IMG/VR virus record: IMGVR_UViG_2534681934_000021
Coordinates: 1-7,469 of that record
DNA: 7,469 bases
Reading direction: 5' to 3' (one strand)
Origin: a virus
Lineage: Duplodnaviria > Heunggongvirae > Uroviricota > Caudoviricetes
In this document: one piece after another, positions 1 through 7,469 of the stretch
Position numbering within the stretch: the first letter of the stretch is position 1
Layout: each line of letters starts with the position of its first letter
The notes under the pieces: model-generated
Databases searched by the model: none
What the model was told of the DNA's origin: nothing
Seen by the model: only the letters and a program-made list of their open reading frames with translations
Position numbers and translations under genes: made by a program

Positions 1-975
1 TTACACATCATTAGTACCTTCCTTATTTTTTGACTGGGACAAATTTGGGACCGATGGGTTCAGGATCGAGTCTATTTGCCGTGCGTGTTCGGTAAGGTGA
101 TTAGGTGCAAGGTGAGCATATCGACGAACCATTTCGATAGACTCCCAGCCTCCCATTTCCTGTAACACTGACAACGGGACTCCGGCTTGAACCAGCCAAC
201 TTGCCCAGGTGTGTCTCAAGTCGTGAAATCTGAAATCATCAATACCAGCCCGTCTCAGCGCCGCTTTCCAGGCTGTGTTTGCGTCATACCGCATCTTCCT
301 TACTGTTGGCGCTTTCGTTCCGTCTGGTTTGGTACAGCTTTCCTTGTACACAAATACCCAACGGTGATGATTACCGATTTGTTTTTTCAATACGCGACAT
401 GCAGTATCATTCAGCGCAACGCCAATTGCGCGGTTTGATTTACTCTCTTCCGGGTTTATCCATGCCACCCGGCGCTGCATATCTATTTGTTGCCATTCAA
501 GGTTGATGATGTTCGAGCGTCTTAAGCCTGTTGCCAGTGCAAATTCAACAACAGACTTTAATGGCTCCGGACATTCATCAATCAGCCTTTGTGCTTCATG
601 GGGCTCCAGCCAGCGGATCCGTTTATTCTTTGGTTGAGGCACTTTAATAATTGGTGCCTTATCGAGCATTTTCCATTCACGCTCTGCGGCTCTTAGCAGG
701 GCCTTTATAAATGAAAGATGCGTAGCCTTCGTTGCAACGGACGCTGGTTTTGGCGTGTATTCTGGAACAGGTTTCCCTTTTTTTCTGCATGCTTCTGCCC
801 TGAGTTTCCAGTTTTCCTCATGACGCCGGTTCGTCATTTTCTGCATTGCTGAATAAATTTTTGATTCAGTAATGTCTCTTAGTTGCATTCCTGCGAAATG
901 TTGAAGCCAGAATCCGATCTGCTTTCCATTGAGCCTGTTTCTCTGCGCGACGTTCGCGGCGGCGTGTTTGTGCAT
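1..975 (-). CDS. int: Tyrosine site-specific recombinase/integrase, 5'-truncated (core-binding and catalytic domains only); the ORF begins at an ATG in the N leader and its first ~20 codons are N DNA read in the +1 frame
   Basis: C-terminal motifs [18 protein letters not shown] and RRYAHL match the Arg/His-x-x-Arg/Tyr catalytic signature of tyrosine recombinases. There is no arm-binding N-terminal domain. The sequence upstream of ~918 is identical to the lambda N start as I recall it, so the N-terminus is a deletion fusion. The protein is not similar to lambda Int. Confidence 0.72.
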
Positions 976-1167: not shown

Positions 1168-1206
1168 TCACCTTCATGGTGGTTAGTGCGTCCTGCTGAT
1201 GTGCTT

Positions 1207-1269
1207 GGTATCACCGCTAGTGGTATTTGTGTCAACATCGCCAGAGATAATTTATCACCGCAGATGGTT
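1207..1269 (-). promoter_or_regulatory. pL promoter with operators OL1 (1209-1225), OL2 (1233-1249), OL3 (1253-1269)
   Basis: Three 17-bp operators, TATCACCGCTAGTGGTA, CAACATCGCCAGAGATA and TATCACCGCAGATGGTT, sit around -35 TTGACA (complement of 1230-1235) and -10 GATACC (complement of 1207-1212). The region is near-identical to lambda pL/OL with a few substitutions. Confidence 0.8.
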
Positions 1270-1282
1270 ATCTGTATGTTTT

Positions 1283-2158
1283 TTATATAGATTTATTTTT
1301 TGCAGGGTTGTGTGGCTTGGGAGGTGATCGAGAGATCAGAATTGCGTTGTTTAGTGAGTTGCACCTATTAATTTTAAAATAAATACAATTGCCTTTTTTT
1401 CGATCTTCCCACCAGTCAGGTGCCGGGTCTGGCTCAACATGTAAAGCATCGGCAAGTCCTGATATCAAGCTGTATGACTGAACTCCATCAATGTGCTCTG
1501 ACAGTGATGGGGTAACATTCTGTCTTAGTGGATCAAGAATAAAATCAATACCTTTAATTCTGGCGTGTTTGGCGGCAGGCACAAAGTCTGAGTCCCCAGC
1601 AACAAGGACAATTACATCAACAAGTTTTTCATAAGCTAAAGTCGTGATATCCATCCCTAGCTTGATATCAACTTGTTTTTGTTTGATGTCATAGTAAAAA
1701 TCATCATTTGTCAGTTCATCCCATTTTTTCGTTCCTTTCATCAGAGCATCAAGGGAGAATGTAGTTAGTTGCCATCGCTTATTATCAACAAGATTCCCTA
1801 ATCTTAAGGCTGTTTTTCGAGTTTTTCTTAACTCTTCATGCAGCTCCGTTCTCAGAATATATGATTTTTCGAGTTTGAAATTCTTGCGACCAGGCGTCTT
1901 ATTGCCAGGCTCAGGAAGTGGAAGGCGTGTTTGAATGTCGAGTGGTGGACAGTCATAGAAGTAAATTCTATAAAGCTCAAGCGGTTCCCTACGTTCTTGT
2001 GATTGACGTTTTCCATTAAGATGGGAAAGAACCATTGACCATATTACTTTCATTATGCATTGCGCAGTCAGTTCATGCTCGGCGAAGTGTTTACGATGCG
2101 TAGCATGAACACGCTGCATGAAAAAACCCGCATCAATTAAAATTGCTGCTTTCTTCAT
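1283..2158 (-). CDS. NYN/LabA-like (PIN-fold) nuclease-domain protein, 291 aa; a cargo gene occupying the rexA-rexB position; candidate exclusion/defence gene
   Basis: The N-terminal MKKAAILIDAGFF and C-terminal VLVAGDSDFVPAAKHARIKG motifs are typical of NYN/LabA domains, along with an internal acidic motif (VDIKLGMDI). The start ATG is at 2158. The gene lies between the cI stop (2286) and the point where lambda-like sequence resumes (~1400). The last ~38 codons read through lambda-like DNA. Confidence 0.7.
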   Translation of the reverse strand: MKKAAILIDAGFFMQRVHATHRKHFAEHELTAQCIMKVIWSMVLSHLNGKRQSQERREPLELYRIYFYDCPPLDIQTRLPLPEPGNKTPGRKNFKLEKSYILRTELHEELRKTRKTALRLGNLVDNKRWQLTTFSLDALMKGTKKWDELTNDDFYYDIKQKQVDIKLGMDITTLAYEKLVDVIVLVAGDSDFVPAAKHARIKGIDFILDPLRQNVTPSLSEHIDGVQSYSLISGLADALHVEPDPAPDWWEDRKKGNCIYFKINRCNSLNNAILISRSPPKPHNPAKNKSI

Positions 2159-2167
2159 AAGAGTCCC

Positions 2168-2227
2168 AAAAAAATAGCCCAGAGCCGTTATGCAGATATT
2201 AACAATTGTCTGCGAACGGGGCTGGGC
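2168..2227 (-). terminator. Candidate intrinsic terminator/attenuator hairpin followed by U7, immediately upstream of the NYN start codon
   Basis: On the minus-strand RNA: GCCCAG-CC-CCGUU...(inner stem GCAGA/UCUGC)...AACGG-CU-CUGGGC, then UAUUUUUUU (plus 2168-2174 is A7). The outer stem is 11 bp with a 2x2 internal loop. Confidence 0.35.
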
Positions 2228-2238
2228 TTGGTTTAATT

Positions 2239-2267
2239 AATCTATGCCAAGTTGACTGTGCCGTCAA
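2239..2267 (-). promoter_or_regulatory. Candidate sigma70 promoter between cI and the NYN gene, overlapping a perfect palindrome TTGAC-N6-GTCAA
   Basis: -35 TTGACG (complement of 2262-2267), 17-bp spacer, -10 TAGATT (complement of 2239-2244). The palindrome ttgactgtgccgtcaa is at 2252-2267. Confidence 0.25.
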
Positions 2268-2285
2268 CATAAAACTTACTTCCTA

Positions 2286-2998
<713 letters not shown>

Positions 2999-3742: not shown

Positions 3743-4664
3743 ATGACAAATACAGCAAAAATACTCAACTTCGGCAGAGGTAACTTTGCCGGACAGGAGC
3801 GTAATGTGGCAGATCTCGATGATGGTTACGCCAGACTATCAAATATGCTGCTTGAGGCTTATTCGGGCGCAGATCTGACCAAGCGACAGTTTAAAGTGCT
3901 GCTTGCCATTCTGCGTAAAACCTATGGGTGGAATAAACCAATGGACAGAATCACCGATTCTCAACTTAGCGAGATTACAAAGTTACCTGTCAAACGGTGC
4001 AATGAAGCCAAGTTAGAACTCGTCAGAATGAATATTATCAAGCAGCAAGGCGGCATGTTTGGACCAAATAAAAACATCTCAGAATGGTGTATCCCTCAAA
4101 ACGAGGGAAAATCCCCTAAAACGAGGGATAAAACATCCCTCAAATTGGGGGATTGCTATCCCTCAAATTGGGGGATTGCTATCCCTCAAAACAGGGGGAC
4201 ACAAAAGACACTATTACAAAAGAAAAAGAAAAGATTATTCGTCCGAGAATTCTGGCGAATCCTCTGACCAGCCAGAAAACGATCTTTCTGTGGTTAAACC
4301 GGATGCTGCAATTCAGAGCGGCAGCAAGTGGGGAACAGCAGAAGACCTGACCGCCGCAGAGTGGATGTTTGACATGGTGAAGACCATCGCGCCATCAGCC
4401 AGAAAACCGAATTTTGCTGGGTGGGCTAACGATATCCGCCTGATGCGTGAACGTGACGGACGTAACCACCGCGATATGTGTGTGCTTTTCCGCTGGGCCT
4501 GCCAGGACAACTTCTGGTCCGGTAACGTGCTGAGTCCGGCCAAACTCCGCGACAAGTGGACCCAGCTCGAAATCAACCGTAACAAGCAACAGGCAGGCGT
4601 GACAGCCAGCAAACCAAAACTCGACCTGACAAACACTGACTGGATTTACGGGGTGGATTTATGA
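3743..4664 (+). pseudogene. O: Replication initiator O, disrupted by a 23-bp tandem duplication inside the ori iterons and by a 1-bp shorter A-run
   Basis: The N-terminal 174-aa ORF (3743-4267) matches lambda O up to the iterons. An intermediate frame (4153-4350) matches ...LKLGDCYPSKQGDTKDTITKEK. The C-terminal portion (KRKDYSSENSG... to GVDL) is in a third frame, ending at 4664. Confidence 0.85.
4092..4198 (+). repeat. ori-lambda iterons, five copies where lambda has four (iteron 3 tandemly duplicated), followed by an AT-rich region
   Basis: tccctcaaaacgaggga (4092-4108), tcccctaaaacgaggga (4112-4128), tccctcaaattggggga (4135-4151 and again at 4158-4174), tccctcaaaacaggggga (4181-4198). 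The duplicated 23-bp unit is 4135-4157 and 4158-4180. Confidence 0.8.
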
Positions 4665-4972: not shown

Positions 4973-5766
4973 TGGCGAAAAATGACTTTAAAGCGTTTGC
5001 AACTGATCGAAATGCCAATGTTATGTCGCAGGAGGAATGGGAAGCGTTGCCTGCGCTTATATCCGGATTTACAGCAGGGAAAGCATCCAGTGCGCAAGTC
5101 AATAAGGTTATTCGGCAGGCCAGCTTTATTGCTGCAGCTCTGGCCCAGTTTGTAAGTGATAAAACGCAACGGGATGTGCTTGATAATGGTGATCTGCCCG
5201 GTTTTGTTGAATTGCTGGGATCGGGGTTTGCTGTTGAATACCTGAGCCGCAAGAATCCGTTTGGCGATATCAAATCGGACGGCACGGTGAAAACGGCTCT
5301 TCAAAACCTTGGTTTGGGAGAAGGTGCTCCAGCTATTGGCGTTCCGTTCTTCTGGCCGTCCGCTGCAATGCCAAATACTGTAATCGACAGCTGGTCCTGT
5401 ATGGTGTTTTTGAAGTTCAACGGCGCGAAATTCTCTGCCACTGATTATCCTGTGCTGGCGAAAGTGTTTCCTTCGCTGGTATTACCTGAAGCCCGCGGTG
5501 ATTTCATTCGTATCTGGGATGACGGGCGAGGTGCAGACGGTGGTCGCGAATTATTAAGCTGGCAGGCAGCTACAAACTTTTCTCAGTTTGCCGGGAATAT
5601 AGGCGAAGGTGCGGGACACGCAATTAACTTTCATGATGGCATCGCCGGAAATCAGCCAGGATTTTCACGATTTAATTTCACCAGTAACTCTGTGGGTGAT
5701 GGTGTGAATTTTGTTGCAGTCAGACCGCGAAATATTGCATTTAACTTTCTGGTGAGGGCTAAATAA
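4954..5766 (+). CDS. stf: Short side tail fibre protein with a receptor-binding-type C-terminus; the likely true start is ATG 4972 (MAKNDF...)
   Basis: C-terminal motifs [12 protein letters not shown]...[20 protein letters not shown]...[19 protein letters not shown]...[11 protein letters not shown] resemble the lambda Stf and P2 H / Mu S C-termini (GAPIPWP...NIAFNYIVRLA). It is followed directly by tfa. Confidence 0.75.
5297..5322. other. Candidate DNA-invertase (Pin/Gin/Cin/Hin family) crossover site inside stf
   Basis: The 26-bp sequence CTCTTCAAAACC-TT-GGTTTGGGAGAA has imperfect 12-bp inverted half-sites around a 2-bp core. It fits the AAACC-NN-GGTTT pattern of hix/gix/cix/pix sites and lies at the boundary between the constant and variable parts of the fibre. 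Confidence 0.5.
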
Positions 5767-6359
5767 TGAAACCTGTTTTTGATGAAAATGGGCTGGCTAC
5801 AGTGCCGGGCGATATGCGTTGTTTTTATTATGATGCTGAAACATCTGAGTATACGGGCTGGTCTGATGAATATATTAATACTGGCGTAAGTATGCCCGCC
5901 TGTTCCACTGGTATTGACCCTGGCGAAAACATTCCGGGAAGAGTGGCAGTATTTACAGGTAAGGGATGGAGCCATGAAGAAGACCATCGCAATGAGACTG
6001 TTTACTCAATCGAAAATGGCGCAGCTGTTACAGTGGATTATATCGGTGCCATCAAAGACGGTTATGTCACGATTTCACCGTTAACGCCATACGATAAATG
6101 GGATGGTGAGAAATGGGTGACAGACACTGAGGCACAACACAGTGCCGCAGTAGACGCGGCAGAAGCACAGCGCCAATCACTGATTGATGCAGCAATGGCT
6201 TCCATTAGTCTGATTCAGCTGAAGTTACAGGCCGGACGGAAACTGACTCAGGCAGAAACAACCCGACTTAACGCCGTGCTGGATTACATTGACGCGGTGA
6301 CGGCAACAGATACCAGCACCGCGCCGGATGTCATCTGGCCTGAACTGCCGGAGGCGTAG
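5766..6359 (+). CDS. tfa: Tail fibre assembly protein (chaperone), 197 aa
   Basis: The ATG overlaps the stf stop (TAATG). The C-terminus ...LNAVLDYIDAVTATDTSTAPDVIWPELPEA is typical of the lambda Tfa / Mu U family (VDTSTAPDIEWP). Confidence 0.8.
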   Translation: MKPVFDENGLATVPGDMRCFYYDAETSEYTGWSDEYINTGVSMPACSTGIDPGENIPGRVAVFTGKGWSHEEDHRNETVYSIENGAAVTVDYIGAIKDGYVTISPLTPYDKWDGEKWVTDTEAQHSAAVDAAEAQRQSLIDAAMASISLIQLKLQAGRKLTQAETTRLNAVLDYIDAVTATDTSTAPDVIWPELPEA

Positions 6360-6783
6360 GCCATTCAATATCTGGCGCACCGGAAGTATCGACCAGCTCC
6401 AGTGCGTCCAGATAATCCAGCCACAAATTATATTGCGTCAGTTCGTCACCTTTCAGACGACCAATAGCCGCTTTACCGGGCCATTGCTTACTGTTCATGT
6501 ATTCGTTGGCCTGGTTAATTAGTAGCTGTCTTTCTGATTCAGTAATTTCAATAAGCTCTTCATGCGTGGGTGGAGGAATATCTGCCCACGCAGGCAGCCC
6601 ATCATCTCCGGCAATACGGATTTTTCCTTGTGGCGGTTCAGCCATAAACTCACTGATAATATTTTGATTTACTTCCTTAGCGTCTGATAAATCCCATCCC
6701 TCTGATTTATATTTATCAATCATATCCACAGGGAAAAAAGCATTATGCCTTGCGCTATAAACATATTCGTCCATATAAATCAC
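6331..6783 (-). CDS. tfa: Second tail fibre assembly protein in inverted orientation (U'-like), orphaned from its fibre gene; the likely start is ATG at 6774
   Basis: The C-terminus ...NLWLDYLDALELVDTSGAPDIEWPTPPAVQAR is Tfa-family. It converges on the plus-strand tfa with a ~29-bp 3' overlap, the classic invertible-segment arrangement. Confidence 0.75.
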   Translation of the reverse strand: MIYMDEYVYSARHNAFFPVDMIDKYKSEGWDLSDAKEVNQNIISEFMAEPPQGKIRIAGDDGLPAWADIPPPTHEELIEITESERQLLINQANEYMNSKQWPGKAAIGRLKGDELTQYNLWLDYLDALELVDTSGAPDIEWPTPPAVQAR

Positions 6784-6891
6784 CCTGAATAAAATTACTC
6801 ACCAACAGCCCACCAACTGTAATTCATCGATACCGTGTGAACCGCCCCGGGTTTCCTGGAGACTAAACTCCCTGAGAAAGAGGTAAACAGG

Positions 6892-7218
6892 ATGACTAAA
6901 AATACTCGTTTTTCCCCCGAAGTCCGTCAGCGGGCGATTCGTATGGTTCTGGAAAGTCAGGATGAATATGACTCACAGTGGGCGGCAATTTGTTCCATTG
7001 CCCCAAAGATTGGCTGTACGCCGGAGACTCTGCGTGTCTGGGTTCGCCAGCATGAGCGGGATACCGGGGGCGGTGATGGTGGGCTCACCAGCGCTGAACG
7101 TCAGCGTCTGAAAGAGCTGGAACGTGAAAATCGTGAACTGCGCCGCAGTAACGATATCCTTCGCCAGGCTTCCGCTTATTTTGCGAAGGCGGAGTTCGAC
7201 CGCCTCTGGAAAAAATGA
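6892..7218 (+). CDS. IS3-family transposase OrfA (helix-turn-helix / leucine-zipper part)
   Basis: [22 protein letters not shown]...[36 protein letters not shown]. It ends at an A6 run followed by TGA (7210-7218). Confidence 0.85.
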
Positions 7219-7469
7219 TGCCACTGCTGGATAAGCTGCGTGAGCAGTACGGGGTCGGACCGGTATGCAGCGAACTGCATATTGCCCCGTCAACGTATTA
7301 CCATTGTCAGCAACAGCGACATCATCCGGATAAACGCAGTGCCCGTGCGCAGCACGACGACTGGCTGAAGAGAGAGATACAGCGCGTATACGATGAAAAT
7401 CATCAGGTGTACGGTGTGCGTAAAGTCTGGCGTCAGTTGTTACGGGAAGGAATCAGGGTGGCCAGATGT
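7215..7469 (+). CDS. IS3-family transposase OrfB, N-terminal part (partial; -1 frame relative to orfA, 3' end beyond the window)
   Basis: The -1 frame is open from 7215 to the window end: [85 protein letters not shown], typical of IS3 OrfB before the DDE domain. Confidence 0.75.

What the first reader, a model, noticed from the sequence alone, without database searches (positions are those of the whole stretch)
1283..1400. NYN ORF reads through into lambda-like noncoding DNA, giving a probable non-native ~38-residue C-terminal tail
Seen in sequence: the last ~38 codons of the NYN ORF (...KKGNCIYFKINRCNSLNNAILISRSPPKPHNPAKNKSI) are encoded by sequence that closely matches the noncoding stretch just beyond OL3 in lambda (TATCTGTATGTTTTTTATAT.AATTTATTTTTTGCAGGG...AATAAATACAATTG). 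The cassette junction therefore lies near 1400, and the ORF simply runs to the first stop inside phage-backbone DNA. Inference: the acquired gene lost its native 3' end or stop at insertion, or the fusion tail is tolerated.
Basis: partly seen in the sequence, partly recalled or inferred. Interest (0 to 1): 0.45.

Follow-up and report, generated by a model that had tools for sequence, protein, structure and literature searches.

The report
Deletion-made junk tail on prophage NYN gene
In a decaying lambda-like prophage, a 159-base deletion removed the natural end, stop codon and transcription terminator of a nuclease-like (NYN) gene, so the gene now reads 35 extra codons into regulatory spacer DNA; this is an ordinary decay lesion.

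Summary
Window 1180-1391 aligns to lambda 35562-35769 (OL/pL and the spacer beyond OL3; 87%, E 2e-67). The last 35 codons and the stop of the NYN ORF (1283-1390, minus strand) lie in that spacer.

The break at 1389-1391 is a deletion scar, not a cassette boundary. Phages ev099, 2B8 and E212, 5 viral contigs and at least 58 complete E. coli genomes carry the same gene and the same spacer with 159 more bases between them. Those bases encode the native 29-residue Lys/Arg-rich tail (KPRGKNNSGKRRYGNTQAESAKKHQRNKR), the stop codon, and a terminator that aligns with the hairpin just downstream of lambda rexB. The real cassette/backbone boundary sits at that terminator, inside the missing segment. The junction shows a 3-base microhomology (TTG).

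The fused 291-aa protein was found on only 2 contigs, and its junction in none of the collections scanned. Residues 1-256, with every invariant family residue, are identical to the intact gene. Both tails are predicted with low confidence.

The host element is the degraded prophage beside thrW/proA, orthologous to one in O157:H7 that carries an independent, larger deletion at the same spot. Low interest.

The parts
1283..2158 (-). Chimeric NYN ORF: 291 codons plus TAA stop
   Evidence: ORF list; Pfam NYN PF01936 36.7 bits; PHROG 5783 E 1.5e-119 for the intact ev099 protein; the AF2 model's best PDB match is the MARF1 NYN domain.
1391..2158 (-). Native part of the gene, codons 1-256, holding the whole folded NYN core and all invariant residues (D9, D69, D164, D170, D189, D191, P247, W250)
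   Evidence: 100% identical to the 285-aa proteins of phages ev099, 2B8 and E212 over residues 1-256. Invariant columns come from 29 homologues. pLDDT is about 90 or higher for most of 1-255.
1286..1390 (-). Non-native tail, codons 257-291 (NCIYFKINRCNSLNNAILISRSPPKPHNPAKNKSI), read from the lambda-type spacer upstream of pL
   Evidence: Alignments. This DNA is noncoding in lambda and ev099 annotation. None of the 28 aligned homologues shares this tail; 120 were listed. pLDDT 51-60.
1283..1285 (-). Stop codon TAA, the first in-frame stop, 13 nt from OL3
   Evidence: OL3 is placed by alignment to the lambda annotation.
1389..1391 (.). Deletion junction: TTG microhomology where 159 bp (ev099 locus L002 2712-2870) are missing
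   Evidence: The two BLAST segments of window against L002 overlap by exactly 1389-1391; multiple alignment; the 159-bp segment is 157-159/159 identical in 5 viral contigs and 2B8.
1270..1391 (.). Retained part of the conserved lambdoid spacer between OL3 and the immunity-region terminator
   Evidence: 177 phage records match the wider 1180-1460 query, operators included; one search shows the right half is conserved even in the hetero-immune phages 2B8 and E212.
1207..1269 (-). OL1 (1209-1225), OL2 (1233-1249), OL3 (1253-1269) and pL (-35 TTGACA at 1235-1230; -10 GATACC at 1212-1207, versus GATACT in lambda and ev099)
   Evidence: Alignment to annotated lambda operators. The promoter scan lists ev099 pL but not the window's.
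2239..2267 (-). Promoter-like site TTGACG-17-TAGATT inside the cassette, upstream of the NYN start; also present in ev099
   Evidence: This is a consensus match only.
2159..2278 (.). Cassette-specific DNA between the NYN start and the point where lambda homology resumes (2279, just past the cI stop): the right-hand cassette boundary
   Evidence: BLAST of window against lambda resumes at 2279.
2286..2998 (-). Lambda-type cI, upstream in the same orientation. pRM read-through is the probable second source of NYN transcription (inference). The apparent frameshift at 2928 is a 1-nt homopolymer difference from sister contigs
   Evidence: No terminator-like site was found between cI and NYN.

Best explanation
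The window is a heavily degraded lambdoid prophage beside thrW/proA. In the slot where lambda carries rexA-rexB it carries a single-gene cassette for a 285-aa NYN-domain (PIN-like nuclease fold) protein. In intact relatives the cassette has its own promoter-like site, and the gene ends 7 nt before an intrinsic terminator that aligns with the hairpin just downstream of lambda rexB (I know that lambda terminator as t_imm; that name is from memory).

In this lineage a 159-bp deletion between two TTG triplets removed the last 29 native codons (a disordered Lys/Arg-rich tail), the stop codon and the terminator. Codon 256 is now joined to the spacer upstream of pL, and translation runs 35 chance codons to a TAA 13 nt from OL3.

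Shown: the deletion, its endpoints, the lost parts, the intact catalytic core, and the rarity of the allele. Inferred: (1) it is a neutral or mildly deleterious decay lesion, not an adaptation; (2) the enzyme may still fold and act, since the core is untouched and some homologues have almost no tail; (3) transcripts from the NYN promoter and pRM now read on through OL/pL and nutL into the N'-integrase fusion, because no other terminator-like site lies downstream in the window.
For: - **The deletion itself.** Window against ev099 gives 919-1391 = L002 2238-2711 and 1389-3958 = L002 2868-5439, so 159 bp are absent with a 3-bp overlap. The alignment with ev099, 2B8, E212 and lambda shows the same.
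- **The protein.** Residues 1-256 are identical; the native tail KPRGKNNSGKRRYGNTQAESAKKHQRNKR is replaced.
- **The terminator.** AACCCGGCCACCGAGCCGGGTT followed by TTCTTTG sits at L002 2772-2751 on the gene's strand. The window has no terminator-like site on that strand in 900-2400.
- **Prevalence of the intact form.** 58 complete E. coli genomes match both flanks at 100%, all with the extra 159 bp. Sixty genomes cover at least 80% of a longer query; all 40 listed carry N plus NYN plus the 159 bp. Five viral contigs hold the intact version.
- **Rarity of the junction.** It has 0 exact matches in species-representative genomes, viral contigs and metagenome contigs. The fused protein is on 2 contigs.
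- **Not an assembly artefact.** The same junction occurs in GCA_002464985.1 and in SRR15415547.
- **Homologues.** There are 7008. The 28 aligned are conserved only up to the P247..W250 motif; their tails vary in length and are mostly basic, and one ends right after WW.
- **Structure.** AF2 gives core pLDDT above 90, native tail 42-56 and junk tail 51-60.
- **Context of decay.** N is fused to int, P is truncated, IS629 is inserted, and the O157:H7 orthologue carries a larger independent deletion of the same gene.
Against: Nothing contradicts the deletion. The functional inferences are untested: there are no expression, stability or activity data. The junk tail keeps a net positive charge (+6 against +10 for the native tail), so tolerance or even retained function cannot be told apart from loss. 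Two independent deletions in sister lineages with left ends 6 bp apart could point to a hot spot or to selection rather than pure drift. The three datasets that share the junction may be one strain.
Confidence: 0.9

Rival explanations
1. One reading: the NYN cassette arrived already truncated, or lost its end during insertion into the lambda backbone, so about 1400 is the original cassette/backbone junction.
For: Homology to lambda does stop at 1391 and the ORF does run on into backbone DNA.
Against: ev099, 2B8, E212, 5 viral contigs and at least 58 complete genomes have the same cassette in the same slot. Their spacer is 109/109 identical and their coding sequence for residues 1-256 is identical, with the 159 bp present. 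In them, homology to lambda continues through the terminator up to 7 nt from the native stop. The truncated form is confined to one degraded remnant.
Confidence: 0.04
2. The deletion was selected. Removing the terminator and/or the basic tail is advantageous in the remnant, for instance by attenuating a nuclease that is harmful once the rest of the phage is gone, or by coupling pRM/NYN transcription to the downstream N'-integrase fusion now that pL carries a -10 mutation.
For: The orthologous O157:H7 remnant has an independent deletion that also removes the terminator and the NYN 3' part. Its left end is 6 bp from the window's: O157 keeps GTTATG, which the window lost. The pL -10 is GATACC here against GATACT elsewhere. 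The junk tail is still basic.
Against: The allele is very rare: 2 contigs, and none of 5426 complete genomes. The two deletions have opposite outcomes for the protein: the core is kept here and destroyed in O157. The whole element is decaying. Two events are too few for a selection argument.
Confidence: 0.1
3. The deletion is a footprint of IS629: insertion near ACAATTG followed by excision promoted by the IS-excision enhancer, with loss of adjacent DNA and microhomology end-joining.
For: IS629/IS1203 sits 3-5 nt from the window's left breakpoint in many O157:H7 strains. A copy lies in the window at 6838-7469. [quoted passage not shown] O157 strain PNUSAE146742 looks like an imprecise excision product.
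Against: In O157 the IS is flanked by a TTA duplication within the already-deleted sequence, so it inserted after that deletion and did not cause it. No IS-bearing intermediate with the window's right breakpoint was found. A 3-bp microhomology deletion is explained just as well by replication slippage or other end-joining.
Confidence: 0.15
4. Sequencing or assembly artefact: the 159 bp exist in the real genome.
For: The window has three 1-nt homopolymer differences from sister contigs, typical of long-read error.
Against: The same junction appears in an NCBI draft assembly and in an independent Logan assembly of SRR15415547. A clean 159-bp loss with microhomology is not a typical assembly error.
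Confidence: 0.02

Closest known systems
Intact NYN cassette of lambdoid phages ev099 (YP_009909946.1), 2B8 (YP_009909878.1) and E212 (QVW53964.1)
   Same: Same gene in the same slot between cI and OL/pL and in the same orientation. Residues 1-256 are identical, and the spacer is identical in ev099.
   Different: Those genes are 285 aa with a native Lys/Arg-rich tail, their own stop and a downstream intrinsic terminator. The window lacks these 159 bp and has a 35-residue read-through tail.
Lambda immunity region: cI-rexA-rexB, the terminator downstream of rexB, then OL/pL
   Same: Same backbone architecture. An accessory cassette lies downstream of cI, and in intact relatives it is closed by a terminator that aligns with the lambda hairpin, followed by the same conserved spacer and OL3-OL1.
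   Different: The cargo is one NYN gene instead of rexA and rexB, with no sequence relation between them. In the window the terminator is deleted.
Degraded prophage beside thrW/proA in E. coli O157:H7 (I know it as Sp1 / CP-933H; those names are from memory)
   Same: Orthologous element at the same chromosomal site, with the same N'-integrase fusion, cI-cro-cII-O-P' and tail-fibre remnant; 99.7-99.9% identity.
   Different: O157:H7 has an independent deletion of about 570 bp. It leaves 116 native NYN residues plus 13 junk residues read from the same spacer in another frame, often with IS629 at the junction. The window keeps the whole NYN core.
NYN / LabA-like PIN-fold nucleases (Pfam PF01936; e.g. 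the MARF1 NYN domain, PDB 5yaa)
   Same: Pfam hit above the curated cut-off. The best structural match is the MARF1 NYN domain. The invariant acidic residues are all present, including the GDSDF motif.
   Different: Low sequence identity (about 10%) and large insertions (TM 0.4 on the query length). Activity and substrate are unknown. PHROG 5783 is labelled 'unknown function' and there are only weak PADLOC hits.

Membership tests
Deletion-derived chimeric ORF (read-through into formerly noncoding DNA) | The tail-encoding DNA is homologous to DNA that is noncoding in relatives | tested here: met
   1283-1391 is 109/109 identical to the ev099 spacer and 85/102 to lambda. No CDS is annotated there in either.
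Deletion-derived chimeric ORF (read-through into formerly noncoding DNA) | Close relatives carry a different C-terminus and stop, and the missing segment has two defined breakpoints | tested here: met
   159 bp (L002 2712-2870) are absent, with a TTG overlap at 1389-1391.
Deletion-derived chimeric ORF (read-through into formerly noncoding DNA) | The tail is absent from homologues elsewhere | tested here: met
   The 28 aligned homologues are conserved only to about residue 255, and the 120 listed (of 7008) mostly cover about 86-88% of the query. The exact fused protein is on 2 contigs. The junction k-mer has 0 hits in three collections.
   In ev099, 2B8 and E212, homology with lambda continues for about 61 more bases through the terminator, and the cassette starts 7 nt before the native stop.
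NYN domain (Pfam PF01936) | Profile match above the curated cut-off | tested here: met
   36.7 bits against 24.2; residues 158-205.
NYN domain (Pfam PF01936) | PIN-like fold with conserved acidic active-site residues | tested here: met
   The AF2 model (pLDDT 87) has the MARF1 NYN domain as its best PDB hit: probability 1.00, TM 0.69-0.71 on the target. D9, D69, D164, D170, D189 and D191 are invariant in 29 sequences.
NYN domain (Pfam PF01936) | Nuclease activity | not testable with these tools
   Needs biochemistry.
Intrinsic terminator closing the lambda-type immunity operon | GC-rich hairpin plus T-run on the gene's strand, between the cassette and OL3 | tested here: not met
   Present in ev099 (8 pairs, 6 G-C, then TTCTTTG). 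Absent from the window's minus strand in 900-2400.
Known anti-phage defence systems (PADLOC-DB v2) | Significant match to a defence-system protein model | tested here: inconclusive
   Only weak local hits confined to the NYN motif: HEC-09 at E 2e-4 and NYN at E 1.4e-3.

The most novel reading that the evidence does not exclude
The loss of the terminator and native tail is not neutral. Two sister lineages of the same prophage remnant independently deleted the NYN 3' end together with the terminator, with left breakpoints 6 bp apart. This could reflect selection to attenuate or silence a prophage nuclease once its phage context is lost, or to let immunity-region transcription run into the downstream N'-integrase fusion. 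It could also reflect a local deletion and IS629-insertion hot spot next to the terminator.
Probability: 0.12. Interest if true: 0.4.

Novelty: new member of a known kind. Interest (0 to 1): 0.15.

Why it matters
The matter is mostly one of housekeeping. The 291-aa protein (UniParc UPI0002ECCB84) is a truncation-fusion allele and should not be used as the reference form of this family or to define its C-terminus. The correct form is the 285-aa protein with a basic, disordered tail.

The locus also gives a clean, fully resolved example of how accessory genes in cryptic prophages decay step by step: intact in phages, tail and terminator lost here, core lost in O157:H7, then IS629 insertion and excision.

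The more interesting object is the intact cassette. It is a widespread, uncharacterised single-gene NYN cassette (7008 homologues) occupying the rexAB slot and other classic accessory-gene sites in prophages.

Tried and rejected
1. I considered that the O157:H7 deletion derived from the window's allele by slippage between the imperfect repeats GCCTTTTTTTCGA (1391-1403) and GGCTGTTTTTCGA (1808-1820). Rejected: O157 strains 272 and 28RC1 keep GTTATG to the right of ACAATTG, which the window has lost, so the two deletions are independent.
2. IS629 as the cause of the O157 deletion. Rejected: the IS is flanked by a TTA duplication inside the already-joined sequence, so it came later. For the window's own deletion, an IS629/IEE origin remains possible but unsupported.
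3. IHF consensus WATCARNNNNTTR in the spacer 1270-1391: no match with up to 1 mismatch, and the window-wide count is not above chance. I therefore do not claim an IHF site here, although from memory lambda pL has upstream IHF sites (Giladi et al. 1992, seen only as a reference in PMC2709558).
4. Rfam gathering-threshold search of the window and the ev099 locus: nothing in the spacer or the cassette. The only hits are the IS629 ALIL pseudoknot and the cIII thermoregulator in ev099.
5. Literature searches for NYN with lambdoid, rexB or defence terms found no description of this cassette.
6. Exact junction scans of genome contigs, viral contigs and metagenome contigs gave 0 hits. A positive control with the intact sequence gave 5 viral contigs.
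7. The SS17 (L007) junction ACAATTGGCTGTT[IS]ATATGGCTG does not fit the simple scheme. That record has an N at this place, so I left it unexplained.

Full report
**What the window is**

The window is a short, heavily degraded lambda-type prophage. On the minus strand, reading right to left, it carries:
- lambda-type cI (2286-2998);
- a 291-codon ORF with a NYN domain (1283-2158);
- OL3-OL1 and pL (1207-1269);
- nutL;
- the first codons of N, fused by deletion to an integrase gene (1-975).

On the plus strand it carries cro, cII, O, a truncated P joined to tail-fibre genes, and an IS629/IS1203 copy from 6838.

An NCBI draft contig (GCA_002464985.1, NJJE01000059.1) matches the window over 6352 bases with no mismatch and three 1-nt gaps. 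It places the element next to proA, proB and phoE. The site is thrW, where O157:H7 genomes carry an orthologous prophage remnant; from memory this is the element called Sp1 / CP-933H.

**Checking the observation**

Window 1180-1391 aligns to lambda 35562-35769 at 87% (E 2e-67) and to HK97/HK542/mEp234-type phages at about 94%. In lambda this covers pL, OL1-OL3 and the unannotated spacer that runs to the rexB stop at 35825. Within 1283-1391 the identity is 85/102 to lambda and 109/109 to phage ev099.

So the last codons of the ORF are indeed read from lambda-type noncoding DNA. Homology ends at 1391, and the non-native part is 35 residues (N257 to I291), because K254-K255-G256 are native. An open run of 35 codons in DNA of this composition is expected about one time in ten; the other two frames close after 5 and 12 codons.

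**What actually happened**

The first BLAST hit to phage ev099 came in two pieces spanning 439 bases for a 281-base query. Alignment of the window with ev099, 2B8, E212 and lambda, together with pairwise BLAST, shows that the window lacks 159 bases present in all three phages (ev099 locus L002 2712-2870). The two flanking alignments overlap by exactly TTG at 1389-1391, a 3-base microhomology.

The missing segment holds three things:
- the last 29 codons of the native gene (KPRGKNNSGKRRYGNTQAESAKKHQRNKR) and its TAA stop;
- seven bases of spacer;
- an intrinsic terminator on the gene's strand, AACCCGGCCACCGAGCCGGGTT followed by TTCTTTG.

That terminator and its flank align with the lambda sequence just downstream of rexB.

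The ancestral cassette was therefore complete, and its left boundary with lambda-type DNA lies at the terminator, inside the deleted segment. Its right boundary is at window 2279, just past the cI stop, where lambda homology resumes. Position 1389-1391 is a deletion scar, not a cassette junction.

**How common each form is**

| Form | Where it was found |
|---|---|
| Intact (159 bp present) | 58 complete RefSeq E. coli genomes match a 106-base probe across the junction at 100%, always as two pieces 159 bp apart |
| Intact, longer probe | 60 genomes cover at least 80%; all 40 listed have full N, NYN and the 159 bp. None combines the N'-integrase fusion with a full-length NYN |
| Intact | 5 IMG/VR viral contigs, with the segment 157-159/159 identical |
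| Deleted (junction k-mer) | 0 exact matches in species-representative genomes, viral contigs or metagenome contigs |
| Deleted (exact 291-aa protein, UPI0002ECCB84) | 2 contigs in a collection of 153 billion gene positions |

Because the junction recurs in an NCBI draft and in an independent assembly of SRR15415547, an assembly artefact is unlikely.

**The protein**

The ORF matches Pfam NYN above the curated cut-off. The intact protein matches PHROG 5783, labelled 'unknown function', over residues 1-258. It has only weak PADLOC hits.

A database search found 7008 homologues, and the 120 best listed mostly cover about 86-88% of the query. In an alignment of 29 sequences the conserved core ends at the invariant P247..W250 motif. 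After that, tails vary in length and sequence and are mostly Lys/Arg-rich. One Pseudomonas protein stops four residues after W250.

All invariant residues, including D9, D69, D164, D170 and the GDSDF motif (D189, D191), lie in the untouched part.

AlphaFold models give high confidence for the core (pLDDT about 90 or more). Confidence is low for both the junk tail (51-60) and the native tail (42-56). The best PDB match is the MARF1 NYN domain.

The native tail has 11 Lys/Arg and 1 Glu in 29 residues. The junk tail has 6 Lys/Arg, no acidic residue and 13 hydrophobic residues in 35.

I infer that the enzyme core can still fold. Whether the hydrophobic junk tail destabilises it is unknown.

**Transcription (inference)**

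In intact relatives the cassette has a promoter-like site (TTGACG-17-TAGATT, window 2267-2239) and the terminator. No terminator-like site lies between cI and NYN, so co-transcription from pRM, as for rexAB in lambda, is plausible.

In the window no terminator-like site remains on the minus strand between 2400 and 900. Transcripts should therefore run through OL/pL and nutL into the N'-integrase fusion. In a functional phage this would leak N expression in a lysogen. Here N is already destroyed, and the pL -10 reads GATACC instead of GATACT, so the loss is probably harmless.

**Sister lineage**

The O157:H7 orthologue shares the N'-integrase fusion at 99.7% identity but has a different and larger deletion.
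- Strains 272 and 28RC1 read ACAATTGGTTA[IS629]TTATGGCTGTTTTTCGAG. That is a deletion from just after GTTATG to the position matching window 1808, followed by IS629 insertion with a TTA duplication.
- Because O157 keeps GTTATG, which the window lost, the two deletions are independent.
- Strain PNUSAE146742 has ACAATTGGTGTTTTTCGAG without the IS. It encodes 116 native residues plus 13 junk residues read from the same spacer in another frame.

That last structure looks like an imprecise IS excision of the kind promoted by the IS-excision enhancer, which leaves adjacent deletions and uses microhomology (PMC9943667).

Two independent deletions with left ends 6 bp apart are mildly suggestive of a hot spot or of selection, but two events do not support more than a note.

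**Family context**

More distant family members are also single genes at classic accessory-gene positions of prophages. One sits between the Q antiterminator and the lysis genes in an E. albertii-type prophage. Another sits at a prophage end in Pseudomonas syringae. This fits a lysogen-expressed accessory function, possibly exclusion of other phages, but nothing here tests that. I found no paper describing it.

**Verdict**

It is wrong about when and where: the cause is a later 159-bp microhomology deletion that also removed the terminator, in one rare lineage of a decaying prophage. It is an ordinary pseudogenisation step of low interest. Its practical consequence is that the 285-aa form is the true gene product.

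Noticed in passing
window 866-975 (and the ORF 1..975, minus strand): The first codons of the antiterminator N ([20 protein letters not shown]...) are joined by a deletion to an integrase gene. All of the pL operon between N and int is gone, and the 324-aa 'integrase' ORF starts inside the N leader in another frame. Homology to the ev099/lambda pL-N region starts at 919. RefSeq annotation (PGAP) calls the O157 orthologue an integrase missing its N-terminus.
   Followed up: partly
window 2928, 3287, 4227: Three single-base deletions in homopolymer runs (T7 to T6 in cI, A7 to A6 at the cro 3' end, A6 to A5 in O) relative to two independent sister contigs. They create the apparent cI and O frameshifts and look like long-read sequencing errors rather than real mutations.
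   Followed up: yes
window 1207-1212: The pL -10 hexamer reads GATACC instead of GATACT as in lambda and ev099, i.e. the conserved last T is changed. OL2 also carries one change (CAACATCGCC). The promoter scan finds ev099 pL but not the window's.
   Followed up: partly
L009/L010 about 2682-2700 and 4006-4030; L008 3182-3200; L007 7182-7200 and 8508: The O157:H7 orthologous remnant shows a series of states: an independent deletion of about 570 bp in NYN, then IS629 insertion with a TTA duplication, then (strain PNUSAE146742) loss of the IS with about 10 flanking bases. Strain SS17 has an odd junction (GGCTGTT on both sides plus ATAT, with an N in the record) that I could not explain.
   Followed up: partly
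window 6838-7469: An IS629/IS1203 copy (orfA 6892-7218; ALIL frameshift pseudoknot, Rfam RF01497, at 7173-7289) is inserted at the end of the tail-fibre assembly segment. O157:H7 lacks an IS at this position and continues into a gp53-like gene and pinE.
   Followed up: partly
window 5766-6359 (+) and 6331-6783 (-): Two convergent tail-fibre assembly genes overlap at their 3' ends, as in invertible host-range segments. The O157 orthologue has the pinE invertase next to them.
   Followed up: no
window 4050-4200: The O gene contains the iteron-like repeats (ATCCCTCAAAACGAGGGA / TCCCTCAAATTGGGGGA ...) of a lambda-type origin. The O reading frame is split (3743-4267 and 4059-4664), partly because of the homopolymer gap at 4227. 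PGAP also marks the O157 orthologue as frameshifted, so the homopolymer gap is not the only lesion.
   Followed up: no
L016-L021 (loci of homologues P0016 and P0083): Distant members of the same NYN family are single, oppositely oriented genes at other prophage accessory-gene sites: next to the Q antiterminator and lysis genes in E. albertii-type prophages, and at a prophage end in Pseudomonas syringae. The family has 7008 homologues and no described function.
   Followed up: partly
alignment A1 columns about 165-290 (window 1330-1391, continuing in ev099 L002 2712-2775): The right half of the spacer and the terminator are highly conserved even in phages 2B8 and E212, whose operators and repressors differ. 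This may be a shared linker at which immunity and accessory cassettes are exchanged, or an unrecognised regulatory element.
   Followed up: no
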